A stretch of DNA of 64,000 bases, taken from NCBI GenBank assembly GCA_023415915.1, contig JAEZIZ010000096.1, positions 217-64,216 of the forward strand, given 5' to 3'. A program made the translations under genes and the position numbers. Below, one piece after another: positions 16,008-29,655 of this stretch (positions are counted from its first letter, which is position 1; every line of letters starts with the position of its first letter). Under the pieces are notes generated by a model. The model did no database searches. It saw only the letters and a program-made list of their open reading frames with translations, and was not told where the DNA came from. The DNA comes from Bacillota bacterium. Its GTDB lineage: Bacteria > Bacillota > Clostridia > Christensenellales > SZUA-584.

Positions 16008-16167
16008 TCTAAAATACCTGTTGAATTTATTTACTGGTTTTATGCTTTCTGATATTTCCCTTTTTATTCAATAACGAATCACACTTAAAATGTTTTAAAG
16101 GTTAAAATGAATAATCGATTACTTGCATCATGATAATAAGAAATAAAAACCAGTGTTGAGAAATGTA

Positions 16168-16752
16168 ATGTCCGAAAATATAACGCCGCCAAAAATCAGC
16201 TTATGGCCGGAAGATAAGGCGCCGGAAGGCGTTAATGGATGTACTCGCTGCGAGCTATGCAAACATAAATCACGAATAATCTGGGGAGAAGGCAATCCGC
16301 AGGCTAAAGTTATCATAGTACTTGATAATCCGGGGCGCAGAGAAGATAAAGAAGGTACACCATTTGTATGCGGAGCAAGAGAAACCATTCAAGCAGCTGC
16401 GTTCGCCGCAGGTTTTGATCAAAACGATTTATATGTGACATACATATTAAAATGCCGGCCAAAAAGGGCGTACAATAAAGAAGTTTCGCGCAATATATGC
16501 ATAGAGTATTTGGAACAGCAGCTGAACGCTTACAATTACATTGCGGCCTTTTGCCTGGGGGATGTTGCCGTAAAATCGTTCTTCAACGACCAGGAGCGGA
16601 ATGTAAAAAACACAAGAGGATCTTGGAATATAGTTCGGGGTATGCCTACGTACGTAAGTTACCATCCGCTTGCGGTAAGGCGAAGGCCTAACTTATATGC
16701 CAACTTTATTAAAGACTGGGAAGCAGTAAAAAGCCGGGTTGATTCGGGTTGA
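16168..16752 (+). CDS. Uracil-DNA glycosylase, family 4-like (Fe-S type)
   Basis: CTRCELC cysteines, GEGNPQAKVIIVLDNPG...GTPFVCGA motif. Start uncertain (GTG 16153 or ATG 16168). Confidence 0.75.
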   Translation: MSENITPPKISLWPEDKAPEGVNGCTRCELCKHKSRIIWGEGNPQAKVIIVLDNPGRREDKEGTPFVCGARETIQAAAFAAGFDQNDLYVTYILKCRPKRAYNKEVSRNICIEYLEQQLNAYNYIAAFCLGDVAVKSFFNDQERNVKNTRGSWNIVRGMPTYVSYHPLAVRRRPNLYANFIKDWEAVKSRVDSG

Positions 16753-16806: not shown

Positions 16807-17613
16807 TTAACTGGTCTCTTGCACAGGAGCTATCATCACATTAACTCCCTTTTTTCTAAACTCTTCCACTGACTCATCGCTTATTCCGGAATCCGTAACC
16901 ATACCGTCTATTGCTGAAAGGTCGCAGATAAACTTTAGAGAGTTTCGCCCAACCTTTGAGTGATCCGCCAAAGCAATCGATTTGGCAGAAATATTCATAA
17001 GGTTTATTTTCGCTCCCGCTTCGTCTCCACCCGTTATCGTTAACCCAAGGTCCGGACTGACTCCATTGATACCCATAAGGAACAGGTTTGCGCGCATTTT
17101 TTCGAGTACAAATTGCTGGTATTCGTCATAAAAGGAACTACGTTTAGCGTTGTACATACCGCCAAACAGATACAGGTCGATATTATCCGGTACAGACATC
17201 AGTATGAACGCAGCGCGGGCTGAGCTCGTCAATACCGTCAGCTTGATATCCCTTCGTGCTATCTCCCTTGCTACTTCGAGGCAGGTCGTGCCAGCGTCAA
17301 GTATTACGGTAGTATGCGGCACGAGAAGGTTTTCCGCTACATACCGCGCTATGGCTTGTTTCTCCTTAAGATAGATCGTCTCGCGGCTGCTCCAGTCCTC
17401 TAAGTTGTAAGGCGTCGTATTCGTCTTTACGGCGCCGCCGAACGTCCTGCGCAGCAGTCCTTTTTTCTCGAGCCGTGCAAGATCGTTGCGTATAGTGGAT
17501 TCGCTGCAGCCTGTTTTCTCACAAAATACGGAAATAGTAACAACATCGTTGCTGTTAAGCAGGCGAAGTATCTCATCCTGTCTTTTTTCGGCTTTACCCT
17601 TTTCCGTAGCCAT
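16807..17613 (-). CDS. DeoR-family transcriptional regulator
   Basis: N-terminal HTH (SESTIRNDLARLEKKGLLRR) and a DeoR C-terminal sugar-phosphate sensor domain. AAGGAGA SD. Confidence 0.85.
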   Translation of the reverse strand: MATEKGKAEKRQDEILRLLNSNDVVTISVFCEKTGCSESTIRNDLARLEKKGLLRRTFGGAVKTNTTPYNLEDWSSRETIYLKEKQAIARYVAENLLVPHTTVILDAGTTCLEVAREIARRDIKLTVLTSSARAAFILMSVPDNIDLYLFGGMYNAKRSSFYDEYQQFVLEKMRANLFLMGINGVSPDLGLTITGGDEAGAKINLMNISAKSIALADHSKVGRNSLKFICDLSAIDGMVTDSGISDESVEEFRKKGVNVMIAPVQETS

Positions 17614-17634
17614 AAGACTTATCTCCTTATAATT

Positions 17635-18606
17635 CTATACCGGTATTTTTGCACCGATTGACTCAGCCGCCATAGCGCAGGCGCCCATTACACCCGCATC
17701 AGTATAAAGCTTTCCTGCCACAATACTGCATTCCTGTATTGGGTGCATCAACGATTGTCTTACAAGCTCACGAACCGGAGCAAGGATACGATCTCCCGAA
17801 CGGGATACGCCCCCTCCAATGATAATCATTCCGGGATTAAACAAGTCTATTAAATTGACGAGTCCTACGCTTAGCTTTTGTACAAACAAGCCTATCGCTT
17901 TTACGCACGCCTCGTCACCGATATCGTACCCGTCATCTATCATCTTACCATCGAGGGCAAAAATATCGTTATTTGTATATTTTAACAGAACCGTGTCGGG
18001 ATATTCAAGTGCAAATCTTTGAGCGTAGCGTATGAGCGCCTTTCCACTGCAGCAGCTCTCAAAGCAGCCGCGCTTACCACAAGCGCATAGGTCTCCGCCC
18101 GTTTCAATAACCATGTGTCCCGTCTCCGCCGCCACATAATTTTCGCCGCGCAGCAATTTGCCGTCAATTATAATACCCGAGCCCAGGCCCGTGCCCAGCG
18201 TCAGCAGTATTATATTTTTCTGCCCCCTGCCCGCTCCAAAATAATACTCGCCAAGAGCGTTGACGGCGCCGTCGTTCTCCGCAAAAGCAGGCACGCCGTA
18301 GTGTTCCCTTATAGGCTTTGCCACATCGATATTACGCCACTTTAAGAAAGGTACTTCGTGAGCGATACTCGTACGGTAGTCTGTGAGTCCGGGTATTCCT
18401 ATGCCGATGCCTCGTAAAGCGGATTTATCTGCGTTTACTCCTAAAAGGAGCTCGTCGACTACTTCAAAGATGCGCTCGAACGTCACCTCGGGAGATTGCC
18501 TATACGGTGTAGGCACCTGCGCCCTGGCGACGATAGTAAAACTCTCGTCCATGAGCGCAGCTTTTATATATGTTCCTCCAAGGTCTATGCCCGCTATATA
18601 TTTCAT
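17635..18606 (-). CDS. ROK-family sugar kinase
   Basis: DLGGTYIK ATP motif and the ROK Zn motif GHMV...CACGKRGCFESC. Confidence 0.85.
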   Translation of the reverse strand: MKYIAGIDLGGTYIKAALMDESFTIVARAQVPTPYRQSPEVTFERIFEVVDELLLGVNADKSALRGIGIGIPGLTDYRTSIAHEVPFLKWRNIDVAKPIREHYGVPAFAENDGAVNALGEYYFGAGRGQKNIILLTLGTGLGSGIIIDGKLLRGENYVAAETGHMVIETGGDLCACGKRGCFESCCSGKALIRYAQRFALEYPDTVLLKYTNNDIFALDGKMIDDGYDIGDEACVKAIGLFVQKLSVGLVNLIDLFNPGMIIIGGGVSRSGDRILAPVRELVRQSLMHPIQECSIVAGKLYTDAGVMGACAMAAESIGAKIPV

Positions 18607-18632
18607 ATCGCATCTCCACCTTTTTTAAGCAG

Positions 18633-19199
18633 CTATTCTAAGTTTGCATGGCGTTTCATCAGCGCCGTGTTGCTCTCCGTAATATTGCAGCGTTCAATGA
18701 TGTATACCATTGTGGCATCCCCGAACAGGAGCACGCTTTGTTCAAACGTGTTTGCGCCGGGTTGTATAGACTTGACGCTCTCCCGCGTCCCCTTTGTCGT
18801 GGCCGCATTTATCCGGACGATATGATCCGCTAATTTTCCTATTGTCGATTCGGGATATATTGTTATAAGCGCTACGCTTGCTCCCGCCTTTTTTGCTTTA
18901 TTAGCCATAACGACAAGCGTTCCAGTTTCGCCGCTGCCCGAAGCGATTATCAGCAGATCTCCGGGCCCTATAGCAGGCGTTACCGTCTCGCCTACGACAT
19001 ACGCTTCAAATCCCATGTGCATAAGGCGCATGGCAAGCCCCCGTATCATAAGTAACGAGCGCCCGCACCCCGCCACAAACACCTTCTTGGAAGCGATTAT
19101 TGCATCCGCGAACGTCTGCGCCTGCTGCTTGTCTATTTTGCTGAGCGATTCTTCCAGTTCTTTCAGTATTGCATGGCAAATATCGATTGTATTGTTCAT
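18633..19199 (-). CDS. hxlB: 6-phospho-3-hexuloisomerase (SIS domain)
   Basis: Start at ATG MNNTIDI (GGGGGA SD). GCGRSLLMIRGLAMRLMHMGF, SGSGET and C-terminal HANLE closely resemble B. subtilis HxlB as recalled. Confidence 0.85.
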   Translation of the reverse strand: MNNTIDICHAILKELEESLSKIDKQQAQTFADAIIASKKVFVAGCGRSLLMIRGLAMRLMHMGFEAYVVGETVTPAIGPGDLLIIASGSGETGTLVVMANKAKKAGASVALITIYPESTIGKLADHIVRINAATTKGTRESVKSIQPGANTFEQSVLLFGDATMVYIIERCNITESNTALMKRHANLE

Positions 19200-19214
19200 A
19201 CTTTTTTCCCCCAA

Positions 19215-19841
19215 TTACAGCAATGCCTCTTTCATTTCTTTTGCTGCGGCCCTTATATCATTCGCATTTGTCAGAGACCCGCCCGCTATGATGATCGCGG
19301 GGTTTTCAGCTTTATATGATGCTATTGTTTTCATATTGACTCCACCCGCCACAGCCGACATGGATGCAGGCACGGCCGATACGAGTTCCTTAAGATCTCC
19401 CAGCGGCGTCTTGCCAAGCTTCTGAACGTCTACGGCCGTATGCACCGAAATAAGATCTATTCCCATTGCCTCAAGCTCTTTTGCCCGCTTCGGTATATCC
19501 GTTATACAGATGAGGTCCGCCATTACAAGCTTTCCATATTTATGCGCTGTTTCCGTTACGGCCTTTACAGTCTCGTTATCAGCAAACGCGAGCACTGTAA
19601 CGATATCTGCACCCGCTTCACAGGCGTAAGCACACTCTATGTCTCCCCCGTCCACTATCTTTGTGTCCGCAAGCACGGTCATATTCGGATATTTCTCTTT
19701 GATGAGCCGTACAGGAACAAGCCCTTCGCGTATTATCATCGGGGTCCCAACTTCCACGATGTCTACAATGTCGTGTATTTTTTCTACTATTGCGAGCGCT
19801 TCCTCGCTTGTAGCCAGATCGATTGCAATTTGCAGTTTCAT
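19215..19841 (-). CDS. hxlA: 3-hexulose-6-phosphate synthase (OMPDC suprafamily)
   Basis: MKLQIAIDL...DIVEVGTP...VLADTK...VHTAVDVQKLGKTP pattern resembles HxlA more than UlaD/SgbH. Adjacent to PHI. Confidence 0.8.
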   Translation of the reverse strand: MKLQIAIDLATSEEALAIVEKIHDIVDIVEVGTPMIIREGLVPVRLIKEKYPNMTVLADTKIVDGGDIECAYACEAGADIVTVLAFADNETVKAVTETAHKYGKLVMADLICITDIPKRAKELEAMGIDLISVHTAVDVQKLGKTPLGDLKELVSAVPASMSAVAGGVNMKTIASYKAENPAIIIAGGSLTNANDIRAAAKEMKEALL

Positions 19842-19875
19842 TTTCTGTCCTTTCACATATGCTTTAATCGTTTGA

Positions 19876-20676
19876 TTAATTAATCATAGCTTCCATAGCG
19901 TCCAGGTAAGCGTGCGGATGCAGCAGGAAGTCAAATTTCTCGGGTGAGTTTATAAACTCTTTGTATACAGGAGACCCGAACCTGATTCCCAGATCGGGAT
20001 TTTCTTTGGGTTCTATCACCTCAAAATCAGGCAGGCGCTTATAATTAGAATTTTTAATTAGTTTTATCGCCCCGTTTTCGCGTACAGCGTATAAGCTCAA
20101 TCCGCGCTTCGCTTTTATTGGCTCATAAAAGAGCGGGCACGATACCACTGCGATGTTGCTGAAAAACAGCGGCCCGCTGCCTCCATTGATGGAACAATGC
20201 CCCCAGAATGGCGGTATTATGATCGCTTGTCCCTCTTTCACGCGCACGGCCTTTATTTGTTCTATATCAGGCTCCGGCTCTTCAAAATTCTTTACCTTTT
20301 GCAGAATATATATGGCTTCGCCTTTGAGTACCTCATAGACTTCCGGATAAGTGTAGTGCTGTCCTTCTATATAGCCGTGGTAATGCCCCGACGTTTTCTT
20401 GCATTCCCCGTTTATCGTGCCGGGCATTATCGCCGTTATGTCATAACGGAAATCATATTTGGCGTAAAGCGGACGATGCTGTTCAAACACTATATCGCGG
20501 TAAAAATCGTAGCAATGCTCTTGTTCATTCATGCCTTCTTCGTTATACAGCAGTCCCTTCAGAGCGGACGCGTTTTTTCCGCCGCCCCCCGCGCAGGTAA
20601 GCCCATCCCGGAACTCAAGCCGATATGATGTTTCGTCATACCAAATCGGAAGTCCGGAGTTCTTTAGTTCTTTCAT
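19876..20676 (-). CDS. Cupin-type sugar-6-phosphate isomerase (cPGI-like glucose-6-phosphate isomerase)
   Basis: TSGHYH(x12)EVYEVL and PPFWGHCSIN match the two archaeal cPGI signature blocks. About 80 extra N-terminal residues. Start at MKELK. Confidence 0.7.
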   Translation of the reverse strand: MKELKNSGLPIWYDETSYRLEFRDGLTCAGGGGKNASALKGLLYNEEGMNEQEHCYDFYRDIVFEQHRPLYAKYDFRYDITAIMPGTINGECKKTSGHYHGYIEGQHYTYPEVYEVLKGEAIYILQKVKNFEEPEPDIEQIKAVRVKEGQAIIIPPFWGHCSINGGSGPLFFSNIAVVSCPLFYEPIKAKRGLSLYAVRENGAIKLIKNSNYKRLPDFEVIEPKENPDLGIRFGSPVYKEFINSPEKFDFLLHPHAYLDAMEAMIN

Positions 20677-20693
20677 GTTCTGTCCTTTCATTA

Positions 20694-21677
20694 TTATTTT
20701 GCAAGCCGTCTGTTATCGCTTTGGAACGCTACAGCAACTATTATAATTACGCCTTTTACCAGTCCCGTAAGGAACGGGTCCACCTTGGCGGCAATCAATA
20801 TCGTTGAAATCATCTGCATCATAAGCGAGCCTAAAAACGTACCCGTCAGCCGCCCCCGGCCGCCGCTCATCGACGTACCGCCTATGGCAACGGCGGCTAT
20901 GGCGTCCAGTTCATATCCCGCCCCCGCGTTTGAAGCTGTAACGGACGACATGCGGGATGCGAGCAGGAACGCGGATAGCCCCGCAAGTAAGCCTGTCAGC
21001 GTCAGTATTCCCAGCTTTATATTTTTCGTTTTAACGCCCGCGAGTACCGTTGCGTGTTCGTTTGACCCCGTCGCGAACACATACCGGCCGAATTTTGTTC
21101 TCGTCAGCAGGAAACCTATGAGCAGCACAACACCTATAAAAAACAACGGCAGGAACGGTATCACACCGAAAAGTTTGCCCGTAGCAATGGCGCTGAAGCC
21201 GCTTTTCATTTCTTCCTTAACAGTAAACGGCCCGCCCTGTCCTATCTGAGTTATAATGGAACGGTAAGCGCTCTGGGTGGCCAGCGTAGCTATAAAAGAC
21301 GCGAGGCCCGCGTACGCGACCAGCAGCCCGTTCAAGGCGCCCAGCACTGCGCCGAACGCAAGGCAGAACAGCAGCGTGAGCATTATATCGTGCGTTTGGT
21401 TGAGCAGCAGCACGCCTATACCCGCAACGAGCGAGACTATGGAACCGACGGAGAGATCAATCATGCCGGAGATTATGACGAGAGTCATACCGCATGCTAT
21501 TATGCCCGTTATCGTCGAGTTGGAAAGCAGCGTCACAAGGCTCGAATAGCTTAAGAAATTCGGATTGAAAATCAGCGCTATTATCACCAGCGCTATGAAC
21601 GATATAAGGAAACTGTAATTCCTGTACAGTACCTTAAGGTTCTGTTTTTTAAATATGCTTCTTACTTTTACCGCCAT
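20694..21677 (-). CDS. Sugar ABC transporter permease (RbsC/monosaccharide type)
   Basis: 327-aa polytopic protein, ribose/xylose-type permease pattern. Sits in an operon with a tandem-ATPase gene. Confidence 0.85.
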   Translation of the reverse strand: MAVKVRSIFKKQNLKVLYRNYSFLISFIALVIIALIFNPNFLSYSSLVTLLSNSTITGIIACGMTLVIISGMIDLSVGSIVSLVAGIGVLLLNQTHDIMLTLLFCLAFGAVLGALNGLLVAYAGLASFIATLATQSAYRSIITQIGQGGPFTVKEEMKSGFSAIATGKLFGVIPFLPLFFIGVVLLIGFLLTRTKFGRYVFATGSNEHATVLAGVKTKNIKLGILTLTGLLAGLSAFLLASRMSSVTASNAGAGYELDAIAAVAIGGTSMSGGRGRLTGTFLGSLMMQMISTILIAAKVDPFLTGLVKGVIIIVAVAFQSDNRRLAK

Positions 21678-21680
21678 ATT

Positions 21681-23174
21681 CTAGACCGCCTTTCTATCAG
21701 ACCCGGTTGCATAATACATTATCGCCGCCTCGTTAAAGTCCTTACGTTCAAACTCTTTAGTAATCTGACCGCAGTACATGACGATACAGCGGTCCCCTAT
21801 TTTTGCGATCTCAGGGTATTCGGAGCTGAATACGATTACGCTTACGCCTTCTTCGGACAATTTGCTGATAAGTTTGTATATCTCAAACTTTGCGCCGACG
21901 TCGACGCCCTGCGTGGGATTATCAAATATATAGACTTTTGATTTAAGTTCCAGCCAGCGCGATATTATCACCTTTTGCTGGTTTCCGCCCGACAATGACG
22001 TTATCTCGTGCTTTGGACTGCCAACCTTAACGTCCAGCATATTTCTGCAGTCCTCAAAAACCCGCATCTGGTCGCGCCGTCTGATTACAAAATGCTTTTT
22101 CGAGTAAACAAATTGCGCTATAGTAAGATTGTCGAGCACGTTCATATCTTTTATTATCGAACGTTCCTTGCGGTTTCTCTGCACCATACCTATTCCGCTG
22201 CGCATGGTCGATTTTATCGACTTAAACTTTACCGGTTTCCCCTCAAGCGTAACGGTCCCGCCGGTGAGTTTACGCGCGCCAAACAGCGCTTCGGCTAGCT
22301 CGCCCCGTCCGTCTCCCTGCAAGCCTGTAAAAATAAGCACTTCTCCTTTATGAAGCTCGAACGATACGTCTTTGAAATAACCTTCACAGCTAAGTTTTTC
22401 AGCTTTAAGTACTACATCCTCGCTTGGCGCTTCTTTGTCGATATGGTCTCTTATATGCTGGCCTACCAGCATAGTTGTTGCTTCGTCCTCGTTAATTTCT
22501 TTAAAACTACCCGTTCCTACGCATTTCCCATCGCGAAGCACGGTAAAGCGGTCGCATATCTTAAAAAGCTCGGGCATCTTATGAGAGATATATATCATGC
22601 TGACGCCCTTTGCTTTCAGTTGCCTCATGATATCAAAAAGTTTAGTTATCTCTGTGTCCGACAGCGCAGTAGTTGGCTCGTCCATTATTATTACCTTCGC
22701 CTCGAACAACAGTGATTTTGCTATTTCTATAAGCTGTTTGTGCGATGTGTCGAGTTCGCCCACCATCGTATCGGGGCTTAAGCTGCCAAGGTTGACGCTT
22801 TGCAAAACTTCGGCAGCCCTCTTGCGCATATATTTTCTGTTTGTTACGCCGAACCGGTTCACGACCTCTTCCCCTAAAAAAAGGTTTTCATAAACCTTTA
22901 GATCGTTCACGAGGTTCAGTTCCTGGTGGATAAAGCGTATCCCCAGTTTGAACGCTTTCTTTTCATCGAGGTTTGTTATATCTTCACCGTTAAAATAAAC
23001 TTTGCCTGACGTCGGCCGCAATACGCCTCCAAGGATATTCATAAGCGTTGATTTCCCGGCCCCGTTTTCCCCCATCAGCCCGTGTATCTCTCCCTCGTTC
23101 AATGAAAAATCAACGTTATCCAATGCCCGGGTAGAATCAAACATCATGGTGATGTTTTTCATATCAATATACAT
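21681..23174 (-). CDS. Sugar ABC transporter ATP-binding protein (duplicated ATPase, RbsA type)
   Basis: Two NBDs (GENGAGKST Walker A; LSGGNQQK signature in the second). Start at MYIDMKN with GGAGA SD. Confidence 0.9.
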   Translation of the reverse strand: MYIDMKNITMMFDSTRALDNVDFSLNEGEIHGLMGENGAGKSTLMNILGGVLRPTSGKVYFNGEDITNLDEKKAFKLGIRFIHQELNLVNDLKVYENLFLGEEVVNRFGVTNRKYMRKRAAEVLQSVNLGSLSPDTMVGELDTSHKQLIEIAKSLLFEAKVIIMDEPTTALSDTEITKLFDIMRQLKAKGVSMIYISHKMPELFKICDRFTVLRDGKCVGTGSFKEINEDEATTMLVGQHIRDHIDKEAPSEDVVLKAEKLSCEGYFKDVSFELHKGEVLIFTGLQGDGRGELAEALFGARKLTGGTVTLEGKPVKFKSIKSTMRSGIGMVQRNRKERSIIKDMNVLDNLTIAQFVYSKKHFVIRRRDQMRVFEDCRNMLDVKVGSPKHEITSLSGGNQQKVIISRWLELKSKVYIFDNPTQGVDVGAKFEIYKLISKLSEEGVSVIVFSSEYPEIAKIGDRCIVMYCGQITKEFERKDFNEAAIMYYATGSDRKAV

Positions 23175-23262
23175 AATGAAATCTCCTTTTAGGCGATGTT
23201 CATATCGAAACAATGTGGATGCCCGGTATTTGGATGCCGGGCATCCCTAAACAAATTGACGC

Positions 23263-24339
23263 TTATTCCTCGCCGTACCTGTAGATGTATTCGTCCGACT
23301 TGCGATATTCTGCCTGATTGTCAAGCGTGATCTGCTCCACGGGAACGAGGTGCAGCCCTGTTTCGCCTGAACCGTACATTATGCCTGACGCAAGGTTGAC
23401 GCACTGGCGTATCATGCCCGGAGCGTATGTGTTCGTGACGACATTGATGCCATAGTTGTCAAGGGAAGACTGCATTACGTCAAGAACGGGCTTCTGGGCT
23501 CCCACACCAATGAGTATCTGTATATTGAGCTTGGCGGGACCTGAATATTGGGCTATGGCGTCAAGTATTCCAAGCAGAGGCTCGTCATCGTGTGTATAGA
23601 TCGCCGATATCTTCTCAATATCTTCTTTTGAAGAGTTCGACAGCCAGTTCGTCATGTCGTTAAAAGCTGTTTCACGCGACCACATCGTAACGAACGACTG
23701 AACAACTTCAATCTTCGCGTCCTTTTTATCCAAAAAGCTCTGTGTTCTTTCCACTGCGGCTTGAGACGTATCTCCCTGGAATTCAAGCACATAAATCGTT
23801 TCGCCCGCCGATATCCTGTCGGCGAAAAACTCGTTCATATACTCCGCCGAGCTTGTACCTACCGCGATCTGGTCGCCCGTCATCTCGGCCGTAGGTTCGA
23901 AATCGGGTATAAGCCTGTCATATACCACGAGCGGTATGCCGGCGTCCTTGATAGACTGGGCGGCGTTATAAAGCGGCGCACCGTCGATAGGCCACAGCAT
24001 GATCGTATCGAATTCATACATATCAAGCGCGGTAGCGATCTGGTTGGCCTGTTCGGAAGCTTCGGCCGTGTTATAGAGAACATAGTCAAAGTCTTCTTTT
24101 TCTTCTTTCAGCTTGTCAAGAGCACCTTTTGCCTGTTCTATTGACTCTGCCGTAAACCCGTGGTCAGCGCTCGGCATGAACACGCCCATAAGCATTTTGC
24201 CGTCGTCAGCAGGAGCCGCGCTTTCAGTAGCAGCGGGGGCCTGAGACTCGCTTGTCTGCGGAGCGGGCTGCTGGGCTGAGCATCCTACGAACGCAAGTGC
24301 AAGCAGCACACAAAGTACGAGTCCAAAAATCTTCTTCAT
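23263..24339 (-). CDS. Sugar ABC substrate-binding lipoprotein (periplasmic-binding-protein type I)
   Basis: Lipobox LAFVGCS, Ala/Pro/Ser/Gln-rich linker, RbsB-like body. Confidence 0.8.
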   Translation of the reverse strand: MKKIFGLVLCVLLALAFVGCSAQQPAPQTSESQAPAATESAAPADDGKMLMGVFMPSADHGFTAESIEQAKGALDKLKEEKEDFDYVLYNTAEASEQANQIATALDMYEFDTIMLWPIDGAPLYNAAQSIKDAGIPLVVYDRLIPDFEPTAEMTGDQIAVGTSSAEYMNEFFADRISAGETIYVLEFQGDTSQAAVERTQSFLDKKDAKIEVVQSFVTMWSRETAFNDMTNWLSNSSKEDIEKISAIYTHDDEPLLGILDAIAQYSGPAKLNIQILIGVGAQKPVLDVMQSSLDNYGINVVTNTYAPGMIRQCVNLASGIMYGSGETGLHLVPVEQITLDNQAEYRKSDEYIYRYGEE

Positions 24340-24385
24340 AATTTAATCCTCCTTTTATTTGTTAAACCGGCTGAACGGTTGTAAC

Positions 24386-25522
24386 CTATATGACGCTTAT
24401 CCACTGTCTTTTTTGGGCGCTTTCGAGTATCTTGTCGCATAATATCAGCTCGTGGCGTCCCGTCTCAAACGTTGCATACGGCGGATTCTTCTTTGGCGAG
24501 CCGATATCCGAATAGATTGCGCGGAAGCTGTTTTTGAACGCGTCCGGAAAGCCTTCGCCATGCCCGCCCGGGTAACCCGCATTTATGCGTACGGAACTGT
24601 CAAGCATGCCCGGATCCTTCTCAAACACACAGCTGTACTCGCCGCGGCGCCCCAGCCAAACCTCGTTGCACGTATCGCAGCACCATGTTGCTGACTGCTT
24701 GATACCTGCAATATTTATTGTTAATTCAGCTTTTCTTCCCGGTATTATCTGACTGAATACTGCGCAGCCTACGGCTCCGTTGCTCAGTCTGAACATCAGG
24801 TTCGCATGATCCTCCGTCGTTACTTTGATCTCCTCGTATTCCGCTTCTTTGTTTGAATCTACAAACGTCTGTACCAAAGATGTAGGTTTTTTGCGTTTCT
24901 CATGCAATATCTTAAAGTCGGCACAAACTTCGGTGACCGTCAATCCGGTGATGTTCTCTGCAAGGTCGAGCCAATGCGTCCCAATGTCTGAAACAGCGCG
25001 CGTCTTGCCCGATTCGGATGCCTCAACGCGCCAGTTATAGTCCGTATCGTATAGCAGCCAATCCTGGGCGAACTCTCCATAAACAGCGTGTATATCTCCG
25101 AATTCTCCGTTTTGCACCATTTGCTTCAATTGTGCCGTCATGGGATACCAGCGGTTATGATAGTTGACTCCATTAACGAGATTCTTTTCCTTTGCCTTGG
25201 CTATCATTCTATCCGCTTCTTCGATAGTGCAGCACATAGGCTTCTCGCAAACAATATTAATGTTATGATCCATGGCGTATAAAGCGATGTCGCAGTGAGT
25301 AAAGTTCGGCGTGCATATATGAAGTACGTCGAGCGATTCCTTTGCTATCATCTCTTTGTAATCCTTATAGGCCTTTGGTATGCCAAGCATGTCCGCCTTT
25401 TCAGCTGCGCCCGCCGAATCGGCAACCGCGACAACGTCCACGTTGCCCAGCCGGCGAAGCGCTTCTATATGAGCAACGCCTATAAAACCTACGCCTACGA
25501 TGCCCGCTCTGTATCTTTTCAT
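24386..25522 (-). CDS. Gfo/Idh/MocA-family NAD(P)-dependent oxidoreductase
   Basis: N-terminal Rossmann GIVGVGFIG ... CEKP motif. Confidence 0.85.
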   Translation of the reverse strand: MKRYRAGIVGVGFIGVAHIEALRRLGNVDVVAVADSAGAAEKADMLGIPKAYKDYKEMIAKESLDVLHICTPNFTHCDIALYAMDHNINIVCEKPMCCTIEEADRMIAKAKEKNLVNGVNYHNRWYPMTAQLKQMVQNGEFGDIHAVYGEFAQDWLLYDTDYNWRVEASESGKTRAVSDIGTHWLDLAENITGLTVTEVCADFKILHEKRKKPTSLVQTFVDSNKEAEYEEIKVTTEDHANLMFRLSNGAVGCAVFSQIIPGRKAELTINIAGIKQSATWCCDTCNEVWLGRRGEYSCVFEKDPGMLDSSVRINAGYPGGHGEGFPDAFKNSFRAIYSDIGSPKKNPPYATFETGRHELILCDKILESAQKRQWISVI

Positions 25523-25538
25523 TGCTATCCCCCCGTTT

Positions 25539-26534
25539 CTAGTTCTTCAGCGCCGCGTCGAACGCGATATCCGACGGCTTTATCCGCATATCCTTGATAT
25601 ATTTGCACGATTCCGTCGCGCCTTGTACGCGCTCCATTCCGCTATCTTCCCATTCAATGGAATATGGACCTTCATAGTGGATAGAATTCAGTTCACGTAT
25701 GATATCTTCGAAGTTAACCATCCCGCGCCCGACGCTGCGGAAATTCCACTTACGGCGCGTATCGCCGAAAGGAAGATGCGAGCCTATGATACTTGCCGTG
25801 TCGTCATTCGACACATAGACGTCTTTCATATGGCAGTGATAAATACGGTCGGGGAAATTACGGATAAAGATATGAGGCTTGATACCCTGCCAGAGTAAAT
25901 GGCTGGGGTCAAAGTTGAAGCCGAATACCTTGCGATAATCCAATACTTCAAGCAGCTTTTTTGCAGTCCAGATATCATATGCTATTTCTGTGGAATGCAC
26001 TTCAAGAGCGTATTTTACGCCTTGCCGCTCGAATTCATCGAAAATAGGTGTCCACAGTTCTTTGATGCGCGCATAGCCTTCTTCTATCATCTCGTCGGTC
26101 GTCTGCGGAAAGGAGTACCAGTAGTTCCATATCGGCGAGCCCAAAAAGCTTGTCGTGACCGAGCATCCCATATTTTTGCATGCGGCTGGCACGTGCATCA
26201 TCTGGTCAATAGCCCAGGCGCGCATCTCTTCCGGCTTGCCCTTAACTTTGGGAGGCACGAGATTGTTGTGCCGTATATCGTATGTATCCCCTACGATCTT
26301 TCCAGCGATGTGGCTTGCAATGGCAAACGCTTTGAGATTATACTTTTCCAGAATCTCGCGTTTTTGCTGAACATAGTTCATATCGGTTGCTGCTTTGATG
26401 ACGTCCATATGATCGCCGCCGCAGCCAATTTCCACTCCATCATAGCCCATCTTGCTTGCCAACTTGCATATCTCTTCAAAAGAGAGATCGCCCCATTGTG
26501 CGGTTAACAACGTTACAGGATTTTTCTCAGCCAT
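25539..26534 (-). CDS. Sugar phosphate isomerase/epimerase (xylose-isomerase-like TIM barrel)
   Basis: 331 aa from the ATG at 26534 (AAAGGA SD 8 nt upstream). AP-endonuclease-2/TIM-barrel pattern (GYDGVEI..., ALEVH, HCHMKD). Confidence 0.75.
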   Translation of the reverse strand: MAEKNPVTLLTAQWGDLSFEEICKLASKMGYDGVEIGCGGDHMDVIKAATDMNYVQQKREILEKYNLKAFAIASHIAGKIVGDTYDIRHNNLVPPKVKGKPEEMRAWAIDQMMHVPAACKNMGCSVTTSFLGSPIWNYWYSFPQTTDEMIEEGYARIKELWTPIFDEFERQGVKYALEVHSTEIAYDIWTAKKLLEVLDYRKVFGFNFDPSHLLWQGIKPHIFIRNFPDRIYHCHMKDVYVSNDDTASIIGSHLPFGDTRRKWNFRSVGRGMVNFEDIIRELNSIHYEGPYSIEWEDSGMERVQGATESCKYIKDMRIKPSDIAFDAALKN

Positions 26535-26613
26535 ACTATGCATCCTTTCATTAAATTAGTGAAATGATATCGAATAATGTTGATTTATTTAAATAATTCA
26601 TCATCCAATGTAT

Positions 26614-26641
26614 AGTTTACTACTTTATTTGCAATAGTCAA
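26614..26641 (-). promoter_or_regulatory. Candidate promoter of the 26.5-16.8 kb sugar operon
   Basis: On the minus strand: TTGACT, 16 nt, TAAACT, ~75 nt upstream of the first gene. Confidence 0.35.
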
Positions 26642-26826
26642 CAATTTTTTTAGTAATATCACAATTATTTTTATCGATTTAATATTTTTTATTCTAAATT
26701 TTGCAGTAATGTTAAATAATCGAATCAATTATTGCTTGTAAGCAAGGAATTACCAAATGCTAATTTGTTCTTATTTTTTCGCCGTTTGCACATTTTCTGC
26801 ATACAGATAATTTGTGTGAAAAATCG

Positions 26827-26860
26827 AAAAGTCCGATGATCCAGTATTCATCGGACTTTT
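26827..26860 (-). terminator. Hairpin terminator adjoining the displaced tRNA-Lys 3' remnant
   Basis: AAAAGTCCGATGA / TCATCGGACTTTT 13-bp stem with flanking A/T runs. Positioned like the hairpin at 55451-55482 next to the intact tRNA. Confidence 0.6.
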
Positions 26861-26862
26861 CT

Positions 26863-26909
26863 TGGTGACCCACCGAAGACTCGAACTCCGGACACCTTGA
26901 TTAAAAGTC
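26863..26909 (-). repeat. attR-like direct repeat: displaced 3' 47 nt of tRNA-Lys(TTT)
   Basis: Identical to 55489-55535 except A26876 versus G55502. Covers the CCA end, T-arm and up to the anticodon loop. The 5' half of the tRNA is absent. Confidence 0.9.
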
Positions 26910-27114: not shown

Positions 27115-27164
27115 TGTTTTCGGTAAAATGAAAATTGTGCAGATGGACCCCAAAAGTTTAGCAC
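27115..27164 (+). repeat. IS21-family left terminal inverted repeat
   Basis: tgttttcggtaaaatgaaaattgtgcagatggaccccaaaagtttagcac aligns with the reverse complement of 29605-29655. The inner ~23 nt are nearly identical. Confidence 0.8.
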
Positions 27165-27261
27165 CCAGATAGGATGAAAAGGAGCCATTGTCAGCGTTCC
27201 AAATAAACAGTTACCCTTTAAGATGTTGAAGTCTAAAGGGGGTAACAGAAAGGTGCTGAAA

Positions 27262-28755
27262 ATGGCTCAGAAACAGTATATCAAACATCTCTATGAAAAT
27301 GAAGAGAAGTCCTTGCGAGAGATTTCCCGGATCATGGACCTGAGTTTCCAGACTGTAAAAAAGTACGCCTACGAGGAAAACTGGAACCAGGCGCATTTAC
27401 CGAATGTCGAACCGTCAAACCATCCTCTGCTGGGGCCGTATATTGAAACAATAGACAAGTGGTTGGAGGAAGACCGGCGCGCACCGCGAAAGCAGCGGCA
27501 CACGGCATCCCGCATTCACGCGCGGCTGCAAGAGGAATGCGGGTATCCGGGCAAGTACTCCGGGGTCAAAAAATACGTCCGCAAAAAGCAGTATCTCATG
27601 CGGCAACAGGAAGCGGGCTTTCTGCCGTTGGCACAGCCAATGGGAAATGCGCAGGTGGACTTCGGAAAGATGGTCTACCACGATAGCCTTGGCCGCGAGA
27701 AGGACGGATATGCTCTGACGATCTCGTTTCCGTATTCCAACCACGCACTGACCCAAGTGTTCCCATCACAGAATCAGGAATGCCTGCTGGAAGGAATGAA
27801 GCGGATATTTGAACGGATTGGCGGTGTGCCGGTAAAACTCAAAGCGGACAACATGACTACCGCTGTGGCACAGGTGCTGGAAGGCAAAGAGCGCATTCTG
27901 TCGGATGGCTTCGCCCGATTCATGCTGCATTACCGATTTCAGGCTGAATTTTGCAATCCGGCTTCCGGCAACGAAAAAGGCAACGTGGAAAACAAGGTCG
28001 GCTACAGCCGCAGGAACTTCTTTGTACCGGTTCCCGTGATTGAAGACTTTGACGCCTACAATTTGGAACTGTTCGAGCGTTGTGAAAAGGACGCCGAGCG
28101 CGAGCATTACAAAAAGCACGTTCTGATCTGTGAGCTATGGGAGGAGGAAAAACAGAAGCTCCTGTATCTGCCGGAATACGAGTATGAGGTCTACCGCTAC
28201 GAAACCGCCCGGCTGAATAAGTATGGCTGCGCAGTCATTGAAACCAACAGCTATGGTCTTTCGCCGGAGCTTGCCGGGCAAACGGTACAGGCGAAGATCT
28301 ACTTCGACCGCGTGGAACTTTTCTACGACCACACGCTGCTCAAGGTGTATCCGCGCTGCTACGAACGGGATACCGAGGTTTTGGACTGGACACAGTATGT
28401 CGGAACGCTGTGCAAAAAGCCCCATGCAGTTGAGCATACCCGTTTTTTCCATCAGCTCCCCAAGCTATGGCAGGAGCATCTGTTAGCAACAGGAGGCAAG
28501 GAGCGAAAAAGCGCACTCATGTTGCTTTCAGAGATCGTACGGGACGGTAATGCTGCCCTTTGCGACGATACGCTTGCCTTAGCCGTTGAGTGCGGACGAA
28601 CGGATACGGACAGCCTGCGGCAATGCTACTATATGATTGCCAAGCGCGAATACCGTCCGCAGCCGCTTACGCTTACGGCGGCAGCACCTGCGTTGAACTA
28701 CAACCCCAACCTTACCGCCTACGATGGTCTGACGGGAGGTGCTCGGAATGTTTGA
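27262..28755 (+). CDS. istA: IS21-family transposase IstA
   Basis: N-terminal HTH (SLREISRIMDLSFQTVKKY), DDE integrase-like core, length ~500 aa. Start ambiguous (27223 or 27262). Confidence 0.9.
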   Translation: MAQKQYIKHLYENEEKSLREISRIMDLSFQTVKKYAYEENWNQAHLPNVEPSNHPLLGPYIETIDKWLEEDRRAPRKQRHTASRIHARLQEECGYPGKYSGVKKYVRKKQYLMRQQEAGFLPLAQPMGNAQVDFGKMVYHDSLGREKDGYALTISFPYSNHALTQVFPSQNQECLLEGMKRIFERIGGVPVKLKADNMTTAVAQVLEGKERILSDGFARFMLHYRFQAEFCNPASGNEKGNVENKVGYSRRNFFVPVPVIEDFDAYNLELFERCEKDAEREHYKKHVLICELWEEEKQKLLYLPEYEYEVYRYETARLNKYGCAVIETNSYGLSPELAGQTVQAKIYFDRVELFYDHTLLKVYPRCYERDTEVLDWTQYVGTLCKKPHAVEHTRFFHQLPKLWQEHLLATGGKERKSALMLLSEIVRDGNAALCDDTLALAVECGRTDTDSLRQCYYMIAKREYRPQPLTLTAAAPALNYNPNLTAYDGLTGGARNV

Positions 28756-29491
28756 CACCATTGAAGCTGGAATGCGAAAGCTGAAGCTTGGAGGATTGGC
28801 CAGAGACTGGCGCAGCGTGCCTTTTGAAAATACTGAACAGTACGTTGCCGCGCTGCTCGATCTGGAATTGAAAGAGCGCGAAGTCAACCGAATTAACCGC
28901 ATGGTGCGCATTGCCGGGTTCAACGTGATGAAAACGCTGGACGATTTCGTCTGGTCGAAAGTGATTGAGCTTCCCAACGGCCTGACTCGCGAATACATGG
29001 AAGAGCTATGCTTTATCCCAAAAAAGGAAAACCTGATCTTCCTCGGTTCTGTCGGCACCGGCAAGACCCACTTGGCGACGGCGATTGCGCTCAAAGCTTG
29101 CGAGCAGGGTAAGCAGACACGTTTTTTCACAGCAGCTTCGCTGGCTAATATCCTCTTGGAGAAGAACCAGAAAGGCACGCTCAATGCTTACCTGGGTTCT
29201 CTGAAAAACGTGGAACTCATGGTGATTGACGAGATTGGTTTTGTCCCTCTGCACAAGGACGCCGCTGAATTACTGTTTCAGGTAATTTCAGACTGCTATG
29301 AGCGCAAAAGTCTGATCATTACCTCCAACCTGGAGTTCTCTGGCTGGAACACGGTATTCGGGGAAAACCGCCTGACCGCTGCCTTGATTGACCGGCTGAT
29401 CCACCATTCTCACATTGTGATCTTCACCGGCGAGAGCTACCGCCTGACACAATCCATGCAGCGCCAGCAGGCAAGGAAAGAAATGAGGTGA
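28748..29491 (+). CDS. istB: IS21-family helper ATPase IstB
   Basis: AAA+/DnaC-like Walker A GSVGTGKTHLA and Walker B MVIDEIG. GGGAGG SD. Overlaps the istA stop. Confidence 0.9.
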   Translation: MFDTIEAGMRKLKLGGLARDWRSVPFENTEQYVAALLDLELKEREVNRINRMVRIAGFNVMKTLDDFVWSKVIELPNGLTREYMEELCFIPKKENLIFLGSVGTGKTHLATAIALKACEQGKQTRFFTAASLANILLEKNQKGTLNAYLGSLKNVELMVIDEIGFVPLHKDAAELLFQVISDCYERKSLIITSNLEFSGWNTVFGENRLTAALIDRLIHHSHIVIFTGESYRLTQSMQRQQARKEMR

Positions 29492-29604
29492 TATGACGAT
29501 TCCCAACGGGTCCACGGGCCTTACTTGTGCAAATGGCCCTCTGTCGCACAAAAGGCCCTCACTTGTGCATCTGGACCCGACTCTACTTTTATGGACGCTG
29601 GCTA

Positions 29605-29655
29605 GTGCTAAACTTTTTGGGGTCCTTTTGCTGAACTTTTGGATTGACAAACACA
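29605..29655 (-). repeat. IS21-family right terminal inverted repeat
   Basis: Its reverse complement tgtgtttgtcaatccaaaagttcagcaaaaggaccccaaaaagtttagcac matches the left IR. Confidence 0.8.

What the first reader, a model, noticed from the sequence alone, without database searches (positions are those of the whole stretch)
16807..26534. RuMP enzymes (HPS + PHI) and a cupin-type PGI embedded in a DeoR-regulated sugar-import operon
One uninterrupted minus-strand array encodes a TIM-barrel isomerase/epimerase, a Gfo/Idh/MocA dehydrogenase, a ribose-type ABC importer (SBP, tandem ATPase, permease), cPGI, HPS, PHI, a ROK kinase and a DeoR regulator. HPS/PHI are known from methylotrophy, from HxlR-controlled formaldehyde detoxification (B. 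subtilis hxlAB) and from reverse operation for pentose synthesis in archaea. They are not known as parts of a sugar uptake operon. Gfo/Idh/MocA plus TIM-barrel pairs typically make and process 3-keto sugars, as in inositol, levoglucosan and C-glycoside catabolism. A plausible novel route is: imported hexose or hexitol, then a 3-keto-hexose/hex-3-ulose, then ROK-kinase phosphorylation to hex-3-ulose-6-P, then PHI to F6P, then cPGI to G6P. HPS would offer a side exit to Ru5P plus formaldehyde.
Basis: inference. Interest (0 to 1): 0.6.

Follow-up and report, generated by a model that had tools for sequence, protein, structure and literature searches.

The report
Sugar operon with PGI–HPS–PHI cassette
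A ten-gene sugar-uptake operon of an uncultured anaerobe joins a 3-keto-sugar enzyme pair and a sugar kinase to a trio of enzymes (cupin isomerase, HPS, PHI) that proves to be a widely shared but unstudied cassette in at least five bacterial phyla, probably linking hexose phosphate to pentose phosphate plus formaldehyde.

Summary
Window 16807-26534 (minus strand) is one tight ten-gene array: TIM barrel, Gfo/Idh/MocA, CUT2 ABC importer, cupin PGI-family protein, HPS, PHI, ROK kinase, DeoR.

The proposed route (Gfo makes a hex-3-ulose that PHI consumes) is poorly supported, because the array splits into separable cassettes.
- cPGI-like/HPS/PHI are adjacent in 51 of 59 genomic loci from Bacillota, Chloroflexota, Actinomycetota, Enterobacteriaceae and Planctomycetota. 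Most lack Gfo/TIM. They sit behind a glucose-type PTS or a ROK kinase plus ABC importer. 134 of 5426 E. coli genomes carry the cassette.
- The Gfo+TIM pair recurs without HPS/PHI. It resembles 3-keto-glycoside lyase/hydratase and C3-dehydrogenase enzymes.

HPS and PHI look canonical by HMM cut-offs and signature residues. The cupin keeps the cPGI metal site and fold.

My best reading (confidence about 0.35): a small glycoside or anhydro-sugar is converted to a free hexose, then hexose-6-P, then F6P. A PHI/HPS branch then leads to Ru5P plus formaldehyde (reverse RuMP).

Rivals are formaldehyde fixation and an allose/allulose-type rare-sugar route. A sister clade pairs the cupin with AlsE, which supports the latter.

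No paper on the cassette was found. I rate it a new variant of a known kind, of moderate interest.

The parts
25539..26534 (-). Xylose-isomerase-like TIM barrel (AP_endonuc_2). Putative 3-keto-glycoside 1,2-lyase or 2-hydroxy-3-keto-glucal hydratase-type enzyme. First gene of the operon.
   Evidence: Pfam PF01261, E 7e-37. PDB 2ZDS 316 bits and 8RO4 '2-hydroxy-3-keto-glucal hydratase' 138 bits. Always next to a ~390-aa Gfo protein in other genomes.
24386..25522 (-). Gfo/Idh/MocA NAD(P) oxidoreductase. Putative sugar C3 dehydrogenase or 3-keto-sugar reductase.
   Evidence: Pfam. Best NCBIfam is levoglucosan dehydrogenase at 140 bits, far below its 650 cut-off. PDB 3V5N, 4H3V, 6A3F (LgdA, 104 bits) and DgpA (77 bits).
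23263..24339 (-). Lipoprotein substrate-binding protein of a CUT2 (ribose-type) ABC importer.
   Evidence: Peripla_BP_4. N-terminal lipobox ...LAFVGC. Best PDB match is 4JOQ at only 74 bits, so the ligand is unknown.
21681..23174 (-). Tandem-domain ABC ATPase.
   Evidence: Two ABC_tran domains. XylG, AlsA, AraG and RbsA models score 456-480 bits, all below their cut-offs.
20694..21677 (-). ABC permease (BPD_transp_2).
19876..20691 (-). Cupin-type PGI-family protein, long form (271 aa). First gene of the conserved trio.
   Evidence: PF06560, E 1.8e-43. Metal motif T-S-G-H103-Y-H105 ... E117 ... H165 aligns with PfPGI H88/H90/E97/H136. AF2 model pLDDT 96.5; best PDB folds are P. furiosus and T. 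litoralis cPGI, target-normalised TM 0.77-0.79.
19215..19841 (-). 3-hexulose-6-phosphate synthase (HxlA type).
   Evidence: TIGR03128 239 bits against cut-off 200. The KGPDC model scores 115 against cut-off 250. E, DxKxxD and His are present. D/V/A sit at KGPDC positions 112/139/169, as in validated HPS 3AJX and 9LJ9.
18633..19199 (-). 6-phospho-3-hexuloisomerase (HxlB type, SIS domain).
   Evidence: TIGR03127 231 bits against cut-off 160. B. subtilis YckF/HxlB structures 1M3S and 1VIV, E 6e-44.
17635..18606 (-). ROK-family sugar kinase (no HTH domain).
   Evidence: PF00480, E 7.5e-66. ROK glucokinase family TIGR00744 238 bits (cut-off 260). Allose kinase 144 bits. CxCGxxGCxE zinc motif present.
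16807..17613 (-). DeoR-family repressor with a sugar-phosphate sensor domain. Last gene of the operon.
   Evidence: HTH_DeoR plus DeoRC. Below every equivalog cut-off.
26535..26862 (-). Upstream control region: hairpin terminator 26861-26826, then AT-rich promoter-like sites (26820-26564).
   Evidence: No Rfam element. Not alignable between orthologous loci.

Best explanation
The array is one DeoR-controlled operon assembled from three separable cassettes.

1. A CUT2 ABC importer takes up a monosaccharide-sized sugar derivative, most likely a small glycoside or anhydro-sugar.
2. The Gfo/Idh/MocA and TIM-barrel pair frees a plain hexose from it by C3 oxidation, beta-elimination/hydration and re-reduction. 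This is the 'non-Koshland' 3-keto route.
3. The ROK kinase makes hexose-6-P and the cupin isomerase converts it to F6P. PHI and HPS then connect F6P with Ru5P plus formaldehyde through D-arabino-3-hexulose-6-P.

I take the net direction here to be hexose to pentose plus C1 (reverse RuMP, as in Thermococcus). On this view the operon that brings in a hexose also supplies pentose phosphate and possibly C1 units.

Shown: the gene identities, the operon structure, the conservation of the cPGI-HPS-PHI trio as a cassette, its linkage to glucose-type sugar entry, and the independence of the Gfo+TIM pair.

Inferred: the substrate, every enzyme activity, the shared intermediate and the direction of flux.
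For: - Tight ten-gene array with no convincing internal terminator.
- The trio is adjacent on one strand in 51 of 59 loci from five phyla. Pairwise identities of the three proteins correlate at r 0.77-0.87.
- Partners of the trio are glucose-type PTS EIICB(A) (TIGR02002, 656 and 621 bits against cut-off 592), ROK kinase (21 loci), CUT2 ABC importers, and RpiR, DeoR or SgrR-type regulators.
- HPS and PHI pass their equivalog cut-offs and carry HPS-type signature residues.
- The cupin keeps the cPGI metal ligands and fold.
- A related cupin sits alone beside a ROK kinase in an Armatimonadota contig, as expected of a true PGI.
- Gfo+TIM is a stand-alone pair elsewhere, with ABC importers, with ROK+PMI, or with periplasmic-type Gfo proteins and cytochromes.
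- Its homologues are 3-keto-glycoside lyase/hydratase enzymes and C3 oxidoreductases.
- Split transketolase, Fe-ADH or an aldo-keto reductase flank the trio in some loci. They could use the pentose-P or remove formaldehyde.
- From memory, not verified here: Hansen et al. 2005 reported PGI activity for the Salmonella cupin; Orita et al. 2006 showed reverse RuMP in T. kodakarensis.
Against: - Enterobacteria already have Pgi and an oxidative pentose phosphate pathway, so neither a second PGI nor a pentose shunt is obviously needed there.
- If F6P is the intermediate, glycolysis competes with PHI/HPS.
- Cleavage of Hu6P is thermodynamically uphill and releases toxic formaldehyde. No formaldehyde sink is conserved in the loci.
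- The patchy, accessory distribution (2.5% of E. coli genomes) looks more like a niche sugar-utilisation locus than a general anabolic shunt.
- Reverse RuMP was tested and rejected by 13C labelling in one Clostridia relative (PMC7380578).
- A sister clade pairs the cupin with D-allulose-6-P 3-epimerase, which hints at a non-glucose substrate.
- No activity was measured here.
Confidence: 0.35

Rival explanations
1. Rare-hexose route of the allose/allulose/altrose series. The cupin is an aldohexose-6-P isomerase that makes D-allulose-6-P, not F6P. PHI and HPS take the place of AlsE. They convert allulose-6-P through a 3-hexulose-6-P into Ru5P plus formaldehyde, or back to F6P.
For: - In three genomes of a sister clade (L065, Clostridium sp. 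DL-VIII, T. thermosaccharolyticum) the cupin gene is followed directly by a protein above the AlsE equivalog cut-off (345-350 bits against 271) and below the Rpe cut-off.
- The trio's usual partners (RpiR regulator, CUT2 ABC importer, ROK kinase, or a Glc/Bgl-type PTS) are the same families as in known allose operons.
- This explains why organisms that already have Pgi keep a dedicated isomerase, and why all three genes are co-conserved.
- The patchy accessory distribution fits a niche sugar.
Against: - HPS and PHI look canonical.
- No enzyme data exist for PHI acting on allulose-6-P.
- Formaldehyde would be produced stoichiometrically, although a simple epimerase exists as an alternative.
- About ten loci have the trio with no transporter or kinase nearby.
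- An orthologous Gfo+TIM+ROK set ends in PMI, which points to an ordinary hexose.
- In the AlsE loci the cupin could simply be a PGI, beside PFK, TK and PGM duplicates.
Confidence: 0.2
2. Forward RuMP. HPS and PHI fix formaldehyde onto Ru5P, for detoxification or assimilation. The cupin PGI passes F6P on to G6P so that Ru5P can be regenerated (the dissimilatory RuMP cycle). The co-encoded sugar uptake merely supplies the acceptor.
For: - HPS and PHI are canonical and closest to the B. subtilis detoxification enzyme HxlB.
- Condensation is the thermodynamically favoured direction (established knowledge).
- Several loci hold only a regulator plus the trio.
- Transketolase and class II aldolase neighbours resemble RuMP-cycle clusters.
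- There is a precedent for RuMP genes serving a sugar pathway that releases formaldehyde (PMC9400963).
Against: - No HxlR-, FrmR- or other formaldehyde-type regulator was seen. All regulators are sugar-phosphate types.
- There is no formaldehyde-generating enzyme in the operon.
- This reading does not explain the systematic linkage to a PTS, ROK kinase or ABC importer.
- F6P needs no PGI to enter glycolysis.
Confidence: 0.2
3. The imported hexose or hexitol is oxidised by Gfo to a hex-3-ulose. The ROK kinase phosphorylates it to hex-3-ulose-6-P. PHI makes F6P and the cupin makes G6P. HPS is a side exit.
For: - The Gfo family is a C3-acting clade.
- D-arabino-hex-3-ulose is formally 3-keto-D-mannitol (chemistry).
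- In three enterobacterial genera a Gfo gene plus a glucitol-type PTS lie close to the trio.
Against: - The trio works without Gfo in most loci, including PTS-only operons.
- Gfo+TIM works without PHI in all six other contexts sampled.
- HPS is as conserved as PHI.
- The kinase is glucokinase-like.
- Characterised relatives of the TIM barrel are lyases and hydratases of 3-keto-glycosides, not hexulose isomerases.
Confidence: 0.06
4. The HPS homologue cleaves 3-keto-hexose-6-P, made by way of Gfo and ROK, into Ru5P plus formate. This would be the aldehyde-level member of the series formaldehyde (HPS), formate, CO2 (KGPDC).
For: - A C3 dehydrogenase, a kinase and an OMPDC-suprafamily C1-lyase sit in one operon.
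- The reaction is chemically balanced (inference).
Against: - It gives no role to the cupin or to PHI.
- PTS-only operons lack any dehydrogenase.
- HPS signature residues are canonical.
Confidence: 0.03

Closest known systems
B. subtilis hxlAB (HxlR-controlled RuMP formaldehyde detoxification)
   Same: Adjacent HPS and PHI genes of the same families. The window PHI matches B. subtilis YckF/HxlB at E 6e-44.
   Different: There is no HxlR; the regulator is DeoR (RpiR or SgrR-type elsewhere). A cupin PGI is always attached. The genes are embedded in sugar-uptake and kinase operons.
Archaeal reverse RuMP (fused HPS-PHI of Thermococcales) together with archaeal cupin PGI
   Same: The same three enzyme families. 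The proposed flux G6P to F6P to Hu6P to Ru5P plus formaldehyde is the same. The cupin folds like P. furiosus cPGI.
   Different: The genes are separate but adjacent. The host is bacterial. The cupin is a long form (271 aa against 190 aa). Sugar regulators control it. The role in bacteria is unproven.
E. coli als (D-allose) operon: AlsR (RpiR), AlsBAC (CUT2), AlsK (ROK), AlsE, RpiB
   Same: The same transporter, kinase and (in other loci) regulator families. A sister clade pairs the cupin with AlsE.
   Different: The window has no AlsE and no RpiB. The cupin, HPS and PHI occupy their place. The kinase scores higher as a glucokinase than as an allose kinase.
3-keto-glycoside ('non-Koshland') deglycosylation and levoglucosan Lgd pathways
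   Same: A Gfo/Idh/MocA C3 oxidoreductase plus a 'sugar phosphate isomerase' TIM barrel acting as lyase/hydratase, yielding free glucose.
   Different: There is only one Gfo and one TIM barrel, and no DUF1080 partner. Scores lie far below the LgdA and BT2158/9 cut-offs. The transporter is monosaccharide-type and the substrate is unknown.
Zobellia galactanivorans porphyran / 6-O-methyl-galactose utilisation with RuMP detoxification (PMC9400963)
   Same: HPS and PHI serve a carbohydrate pathway.
   Different: There the formaldehyde comes from an oxidative P450 demethylation. No such enzyme is present here, and the hosts are mostly strict anaerobes.

Membership tests
3-hexulose-6-phosphate synthase (HxlA, TIGR03128) | Score above the curated equivalog cut-off and above that of the KGPDC paralogue | tested here: met
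   239 bits against cut-off 200. KGPDC models score 115 and 83 bits, below their cut-offs.
3-hexulose-6-phosphate synthase (HxlA, TIGR03128) | Mg ligands and catalytic motif (Glu, DxKxxD, His), plus HPS-type residues at KGPDC positions E112, R139 and T169 | tested here: met
   E, D-T-K-I-V-D and H are present. The window has D/V/A; validated HPS 3AJX has D/L/A and 9LJ9 has D/I/A. The meaning of these three positions is recalled from Yew et al. 2005.
3-hexulose-6-phosphate synthase (HxlA, TIGR03128) | Catalyses Ru5P + formaldehyde <-> D-arabino-3-hexulose-6-P | not testable with these tools
   Needs an enzyme assay.
6-phospho-3-hexuloisomerase (HxlB, TIGR03127) | Score above the equivalog cut-off; single SIS domain; close to the characterised B. 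subtilis enzyme | tested here: met
   231 bits against cut-off 160. 1M3S and 1VIV at E 6e-44.
Cupin-type phosphoglucose isomerase (PF06560) | Pfam match, cupin fold closest to solved cPGIs, and the His-His-Glu-His metal site | tested here: met
   E 1.8e-43. Target-normalised TM 0.77-0.79 to 1X82 and 1J3R; other cupins reach only E ~1e-6. H103, H105, E117 and H165 are invariant in 16 homologues.
Cupin-type phosphoglucose isomerase (PF06560) | Compact ~190-aa protein; residues Y152 and H158 of PfPGI | tested here: not met
   271 aa, with about 40 extra N-terminal and about 55 extra C-terminal residues. A181 and L187 replace Y152 and H158; Y160 is kept. The long form is shared with Methanoculleus cPGI. 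The role of these residues is recalled, not verified.
Cupin-type phosphoglucose isomerase (PF06560) | G6P <-> F6P activity | not testable with these tools
   Hansen et al. 2005 (Salmonella homologue) could not be read here.
hxlAB-type formaldehyde detoxification operon | Formaldehyde-sensing regulator (HxlR or FrmR type) next to the genes | tested here: not met
   The regulator is DeoR in the window. It is RpiR, DeoR, SgrR-type or LacI in 59 loci.
als-type D-allose operon | D-allulose-6-P 3-epimerase (AlsE) and an allose-6-P isomerase (RpiB) | tested here: not met
   Neither is in the array. AlsE is present only in the sister-clade loci L065, L074 and L075.
als-type D-allose operon | CUT2 ABC importer plus ROK kinase | tested here: inconclusive
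   Both families are present. AlsA, AlsK and AlsB models are all below their cut-offs, and the glucokinase model scores higher.
3-keto-glycoside / levoglucosan (Lgd) pathway | C3-specific Gfo/Idh/MocA dehydrogenase | tested here: inconclusive
   Best NCBIfam is LgdA at 140 bits against cut-off 650. 6A3F at E 8e-29 and DgpA at E 1.5e-20. Regiochemistry is not testable here.
3-keto-glycoside / levoglucosan (Lgd) pathway | TIM-barrel lyase/hydratase partner next to the dehydrogenase | tested here: met
   8RO4 hydratase at E 3.6e-39. The pair is adjacent in every context sampled.
3-keto-glycoside / levoglucosan (Lgd) pathway | Second lyase/hydratase (DUF1080 or LgdB2) and a separate 3-keto-glucose reductase (LgdC) | tested here: not met
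   The array has only one TIM barrel and one Gfo.

The most novel reading that the evidence does not exclude
The cupin-HPS-PHI trio is a dedicated bacterial catabolic pathway that removes C1 from a glucose-like rare sugar phosphate. One version is an AlsE-independent allose/allulose route: aldose-6-P, then allulose-6-P, then 3-hexulose-6-P, then Ru5P plus formaldehyde. In the window's version it would be coupled to C3 oxidation, so that C1 could even leave as formate. Either way a hexose would enter metabolism as a pentose phosphate by a route not described in bacteria.
Probability: 0.2. Interest if true: 0.75.

Novelty: new variant of a known kind. Interest (0 to 1): 0.55.

Why it matters
HPS and PHI are textbook enzymes of methylotrophy and formaldehyde detoxification. 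Cupin PGI is regarded as an archaeal curiosity. Here the three form a horizontally mobile cassette, wired to sugar uptake in gut, rumen and digester anaerobes and in E. coli, Salmonella and Klebsiella relatives.

That implies one of three things: a bacterial reverse-RuMP hexose-to-pentose shunt, an unrecognised rare-sugar pathway that produces formaldehyde inside cells, or a sugar-primed formaldehyde sink. Each would change how these genes are annotated and modelled. Each is directly testable in E. coli isolates that carry the island.

The operon also places the recently described 3-keto 'alternative glycosidase' chemistry in Gram-positive anaerobes, with a monosaccharide-type importer.

Tried and rejected
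- **Literature.** All ten full-text searches found no paper on the cassette. Hansen et al. 2005 could not be opened.
- **Hamamelose.** A cupin retro-aldolase could give Ru5P plus formaldehyde, re-joined by HPS. I found nothing to support this, so it stays speculation.
- **HPS as a disguised decarboxylase, epimerase or isomerase.** Rejected as the main reading because the signature residues are HPS-type.
- **Formaldehyde-related neighbours.** ORFs next to stand-alone trios are unrelated housekeeping genes. Fe-ADH or an aldo-keto reductase appear in only a few loci.
- **Shared operator or leader.** The upstream regions of six orthologous loci do not align. There is no Rfam hit.
- **SBP ligand by homology.** The best solved relative scores only 74 bits.
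- **Plasmid search.** It returned only Salmonella and E. coli records of the same island.
- **The XDH-family genes downstream of the array as a formaldehyde sink.** They are not conserved next to the array in other species.

Full report
**Observation**

On the minus strand lie ten genes:

| Gene | Coordinates |
|---|---|
| AP_endonuc_2 TIM barrel | 25539-26534 |
| Gfo/Idh/MocA oxidoreductase | 24386-25522 |
| Lipoprotein SBP of a CUT2 ABC importer | 23263-24339 |
| Tandem ABC ATPase | 21681-23174 |
| Permease | 20694-21677 |
| PF06560 cupin 'GPI' protein, 271 aa | 19876-20691 |
| HPS | 19215-19841 |
| PHI | 18633-19199 |
| ROK kinase | 17635-18606 |
| DeoR regulator | 16807-17613 |

HPS (239 bits, cut-off 200) and PHI (231 bits, cut-off 160) pass NCBIfam's equivalog cut-offs. 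The KGPDC models do not. Gaps between genes are 2-88 bp.

A 14-pair hairpin terminator and several promoter-like sites lie upstream of the first gene. Terminator-like sites inside the array are no more frequent than in shuffled sequence. The window comes from an uncultured organism found in several JGI metagenomes. Its relatives are Bacillota.

**The cupin-HPS-PHI trio is a conserved cassette**

I used the cupin protein and 15 homologues to scan one genome per species and recovered 59 loci.
- All three genes are present in 52 loci. In 51 they are adjacent on one strand within 2.6 kb.
- Gene order is cPGI-HPS-PHI in 41 loci and cPGI-PHI-HPS in 10.
- Of the seven loci without all three genes, three (L007, L039, L055) are cut by a contig end. 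In L034 no PHI was detected downstream of HPS. The clear exceptions are L027, L062 and L065.
- The loci come from Bacillota (Lachnospiraceae, Christensenellaceae, Oscillospiraceae, Anaerococcus, Streptococcaceae), Chloroflexota, Actinomycetota (Coriobacteriia, Propioniciclava, Streptomyces), Enterobacteriaceae and Planctomycetota.
- Pairwise identities of the three proteins correlate at r 0.77-0.87, although shared species phylogeny contributes to this.
- In E. coli the trio is present in 134 of 5426 complete genomes. PGAP annotates it as 'glucose-6-phosphate isomerase family protein, hxlB, hxlA'. It lies behind a ptsG-like EIICB gene and next to a divergent SgrR-family regulator.
- Salmonella carries the same island. 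The closest solved structure to the window HPS is the Salmonella 'putative HPS' 3F4W.

**What travels with the trio**

I clustered all neighbouring ORFs and annotated representatives of each cluster.

| Partner | Loci |
|---|---|
| Glucose-type PTS EIICB(A) (TIGR02002 above cut-off in E. coli and a Clostridiales MAG) | 17 |
| ROK kinase | 21 |
| CUT2 ABC components | at least 18 |
| RpiR regulator | 18 |
| DeoR regulator | 13 |
| SgrR-type regulator | 9 |
| LacI regulator | 4 |
| Gfo orthologue | 9 |
| TIM barrel | 6-7 |

About ten loci hold only a regulator plus the trio among unrelated genes. Occasional neighbours are split transketolase, GatZ-like protein plus class II aldolase, Fe-ADH and an aldo-keto reductase. 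No formaldehyde-type regulator was seen.

The full ten-gene order of the window is kept in Christensenellaceae-, Lachnospiraceae-, Faecalibacterium- and Leptolinea-labelled MAGs, down to about 60% cupin identity. Clostridium sp. Marseille-P3244 holds the same ten families, with a different TIM barrel, as two divergent operons.

**The Gfo+TIM pair is a separate cassette**

The TIM barrel belongs to a very large family of ~329-aa proteins with more than 7700 hits. It matches S. coelicolor 2ZDS at 316 bits and the 2-hydroxy-3-keto-glucal hydratase 8RO4 at E 3.6e-39. The Gfo protein matches levoglucosan dehydrogenase and the C-glycoside 3-oxidase DgpA.

In six other contexts sampled, the TIM gene always sits beside a ~390-aa Gfo gene and never beside HPS/PHI:
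- with a ROK-type regulator;
- with a CUT2 importer;
- with ROK kinase plus type I PMI;
- in two loci, with periplasmic-type Gfo proteins, HEAT-repeat proteins and multihaem cytochromes;
- next to GH130 mannoside phosphorylases.

Nasseri et al. (bioRxiv 10.1101/2024.03.25.586180) worked on such enzymes. They showed that 'sugar phosphate isomerase' TIM barrels are 3-keto-glucoside 1,2-lyases with slow hydratase activity. They also showed that the Gfo partner both oxidises the glycoside at C3 and reduces 3-keto-glucose. The net result is hydrolysis to free glucose.

The pair most likely delivers an ordinary hexose, not the PHI substrate.

**Are the trio's enzymes canonical?**

- **HPS.** It has the Glu, DxKxxD and His motifs. 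It has D/V/A at the three positions that, as I recall from Yew et al. 2005, separate HPS from KGPDC. Validated HPS structures 3AJX and 9LJ9 have D/L/A and D/I/A.
- **PHI.** It matches B. subtilis HxlB at E 6e-44.
- **Cupin.** The model is confident (pLDDT 96.5). Its best structural matches are P. furiosus and T. litoralis cPGI, at target-normalised TM 0.77-0.79 and E ~1e-15. Other cupins reach only about 1e-6. The His-His-Glu-His metal site is invariant. The protein is a long form, with extra N- and C-terminal segments that Methanoculleus cPGI also has.
- **Family size.** The family is small: 926 clusters at 50% identity, of which 91 score at E 1e-30 or better.

**A sister clade complicates the picture**

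The most distant locus (L065) and two isolates found with it, Clostridium sp. DL-VIII and T. thermosaccharolyticum, have the order DeoR | cupin - X - .... Here X exceeds the equivalog cut-off for D-allulose-6-P 3-epimerase (345-350 bits against 271) and fails the Rpe cut-off. In the two isolates X is followed by a PTS EIIA, PFK and split transketolase; in L065 by a glycyl-radical enzyme and its activase.

This allows two readings:
- The cupin makes allulose-6-P, and PHI+HPS replace AlsE in the main clade.
- The cupin is a plain PGI that accompanies operons producing F6P from unusual hexulose phosphates, beside PFK, TK and PGM duplicates.

An Armatimonadota contig has only ROK plus the cupin, as expected of a true PGI.

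**Weighing the mechanisms**

*Canonical chemistry.* This makes the trio hexose-6-P <-> F6P <-> Hu6P <-> Ru5P + formaldehyde. The systematic linkage to glucose-type entry favours flux from hexose. So do the ROK+PMI ending of an orthologous Gfo/TIM set and the sugar-phosphate regulators. That would be a reverse RuMP branch, as established in Thermococcus (from memory, Orita et al. 2006). Against it:
- Enterobacteria already have Pgi and an oxidative pentose phosphate pathway.
- F6P would be drawn into glycolysis.
- Cleavage is uphill and toxic, and no conserved formaldehyde sink was found.
- The distribution is patchy.
- 13C data exclude reverse RuMP in one Clostridia relative.

*Forward fixation.* This explains the canonical enzymes and the stand-alone loci. 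It does not explain the transporters and kinases.

*Allose/allulose route.* This explains the dedicated isomerase, the als-like architecture and the AlsE sister clade. It needs an unproven PHI specificity and wasteful formaldehyde release.

**Novelty and verdict**

The proposed mechanism is mostly not supported. It is a new variant of known systems. It is testable in E. coli and Salmonella isolates and is of moderate interest.

Noticed in passing
window 27115-29654: An IS21-family element (istA 27223-28755, istB 28739-29491) is inserted about 580 bp upstream of the operon. It has an 8-bp target duplication. It is absent from the otherwise 99.9-100% identical contig L001 from another sample.
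   Followed up: yes
window 26863-26909 and 55489-55535: A 47-bp direct repeat of the 3' end of tRNA-Lys(UUU) brackets about 28.6 kb that is missing from the 98%-identical contig L015. This is a strain-variable island at the tRNA. It carries sugar-catabolism genes (CUT1 ABC, two Gfo/Idh/MocA, an SIS protein, a ketohexokinase-like protein, KDPG aldolase, a PfkB kinase, a GlcNAc-2-epimerase-family protein, a lactonase) and what looks like a truncated type I restriction R subunit (only its C-terminal domains match). No integrase was found among the ten ORFs scanned. The operon lies just outside the island.
   Followed up: partly
window 55489-55961: A cluster of four tRNA genes (Lys-UUU, Gln-UUG, His-GUG, Arg-UCU) on the minus strand.
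   Followed up: no
L015 (JBLNCA010000041.1): A contig 98-99% identical to the window is deposited as a 'Burkholderiales' MAG. Every other close relative is Bacillota or Christensenellaceae, so it is probably mis-binned or mislabelled.
   Followed up: partly
window 11335-16752: Downstream of the operon lie a convergent UDG-family gene (16168-16752, + strand) and a three-subunit xanthine-dehydrogenase-family enzyme with an AraC regulator: Mo subunit 13680-16007, FAD subunit ~12877-13683, 2Fe-2S subunit ~12398-12865. These are not conserved next to the operon in other species.
   Followed up: partly
L065 7615-14786; L074 8001-14637; L075 8001-16347: In a sister clade the cupin PGI-family gene is followed directly by a D-allulose-6-P 3-epimerase. 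The epimerase is followed by EIIA, PFK and split transketolase in L074 and L075. L065 instead has a hexokinase-family kinase and a PMI-like cupin upstream, and a glycyl-radical enzyme downstream. This looks like an uncharacterised hexitol or rare-hexose locus.
   Followed up: partly
L066 (E. coli 118UI) 4585-14534: An accessory island of E. coli, present in 134 of 5426 genomes, holds an SgrR-family regulator, a ptsG-like EIICB, the cupin, hxlB and hxlA. In this strain, and in an Enterobacter and a Citrobacter genome, a Gfo/Idh/MocA gene plus a glucitol-type PTS lie close by on the other strand.
   Followed up: partly
L031-L033 about 3400-15200: Fusibacillus and Paralachnospira loci carry a second, divergent PHI-like SIS protein (TIGR03127 125 bits, below the 160 cut-off). 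They also carry one or two GatZ/KbaZ-like genes beside the trio, which hints at further hexulose-phosphate interconversions.
   Followed up: no
L071 and L073: The Gfo+TIM pair sits among TAT-type Gfo proteins (GFO_IDH_MocA_C2), HEAT-repeat proteins and multihaem cytochromes. This suggests a 3-keto-glycoside oxidation system wired to an electron-transport chain.
   Followed up: no
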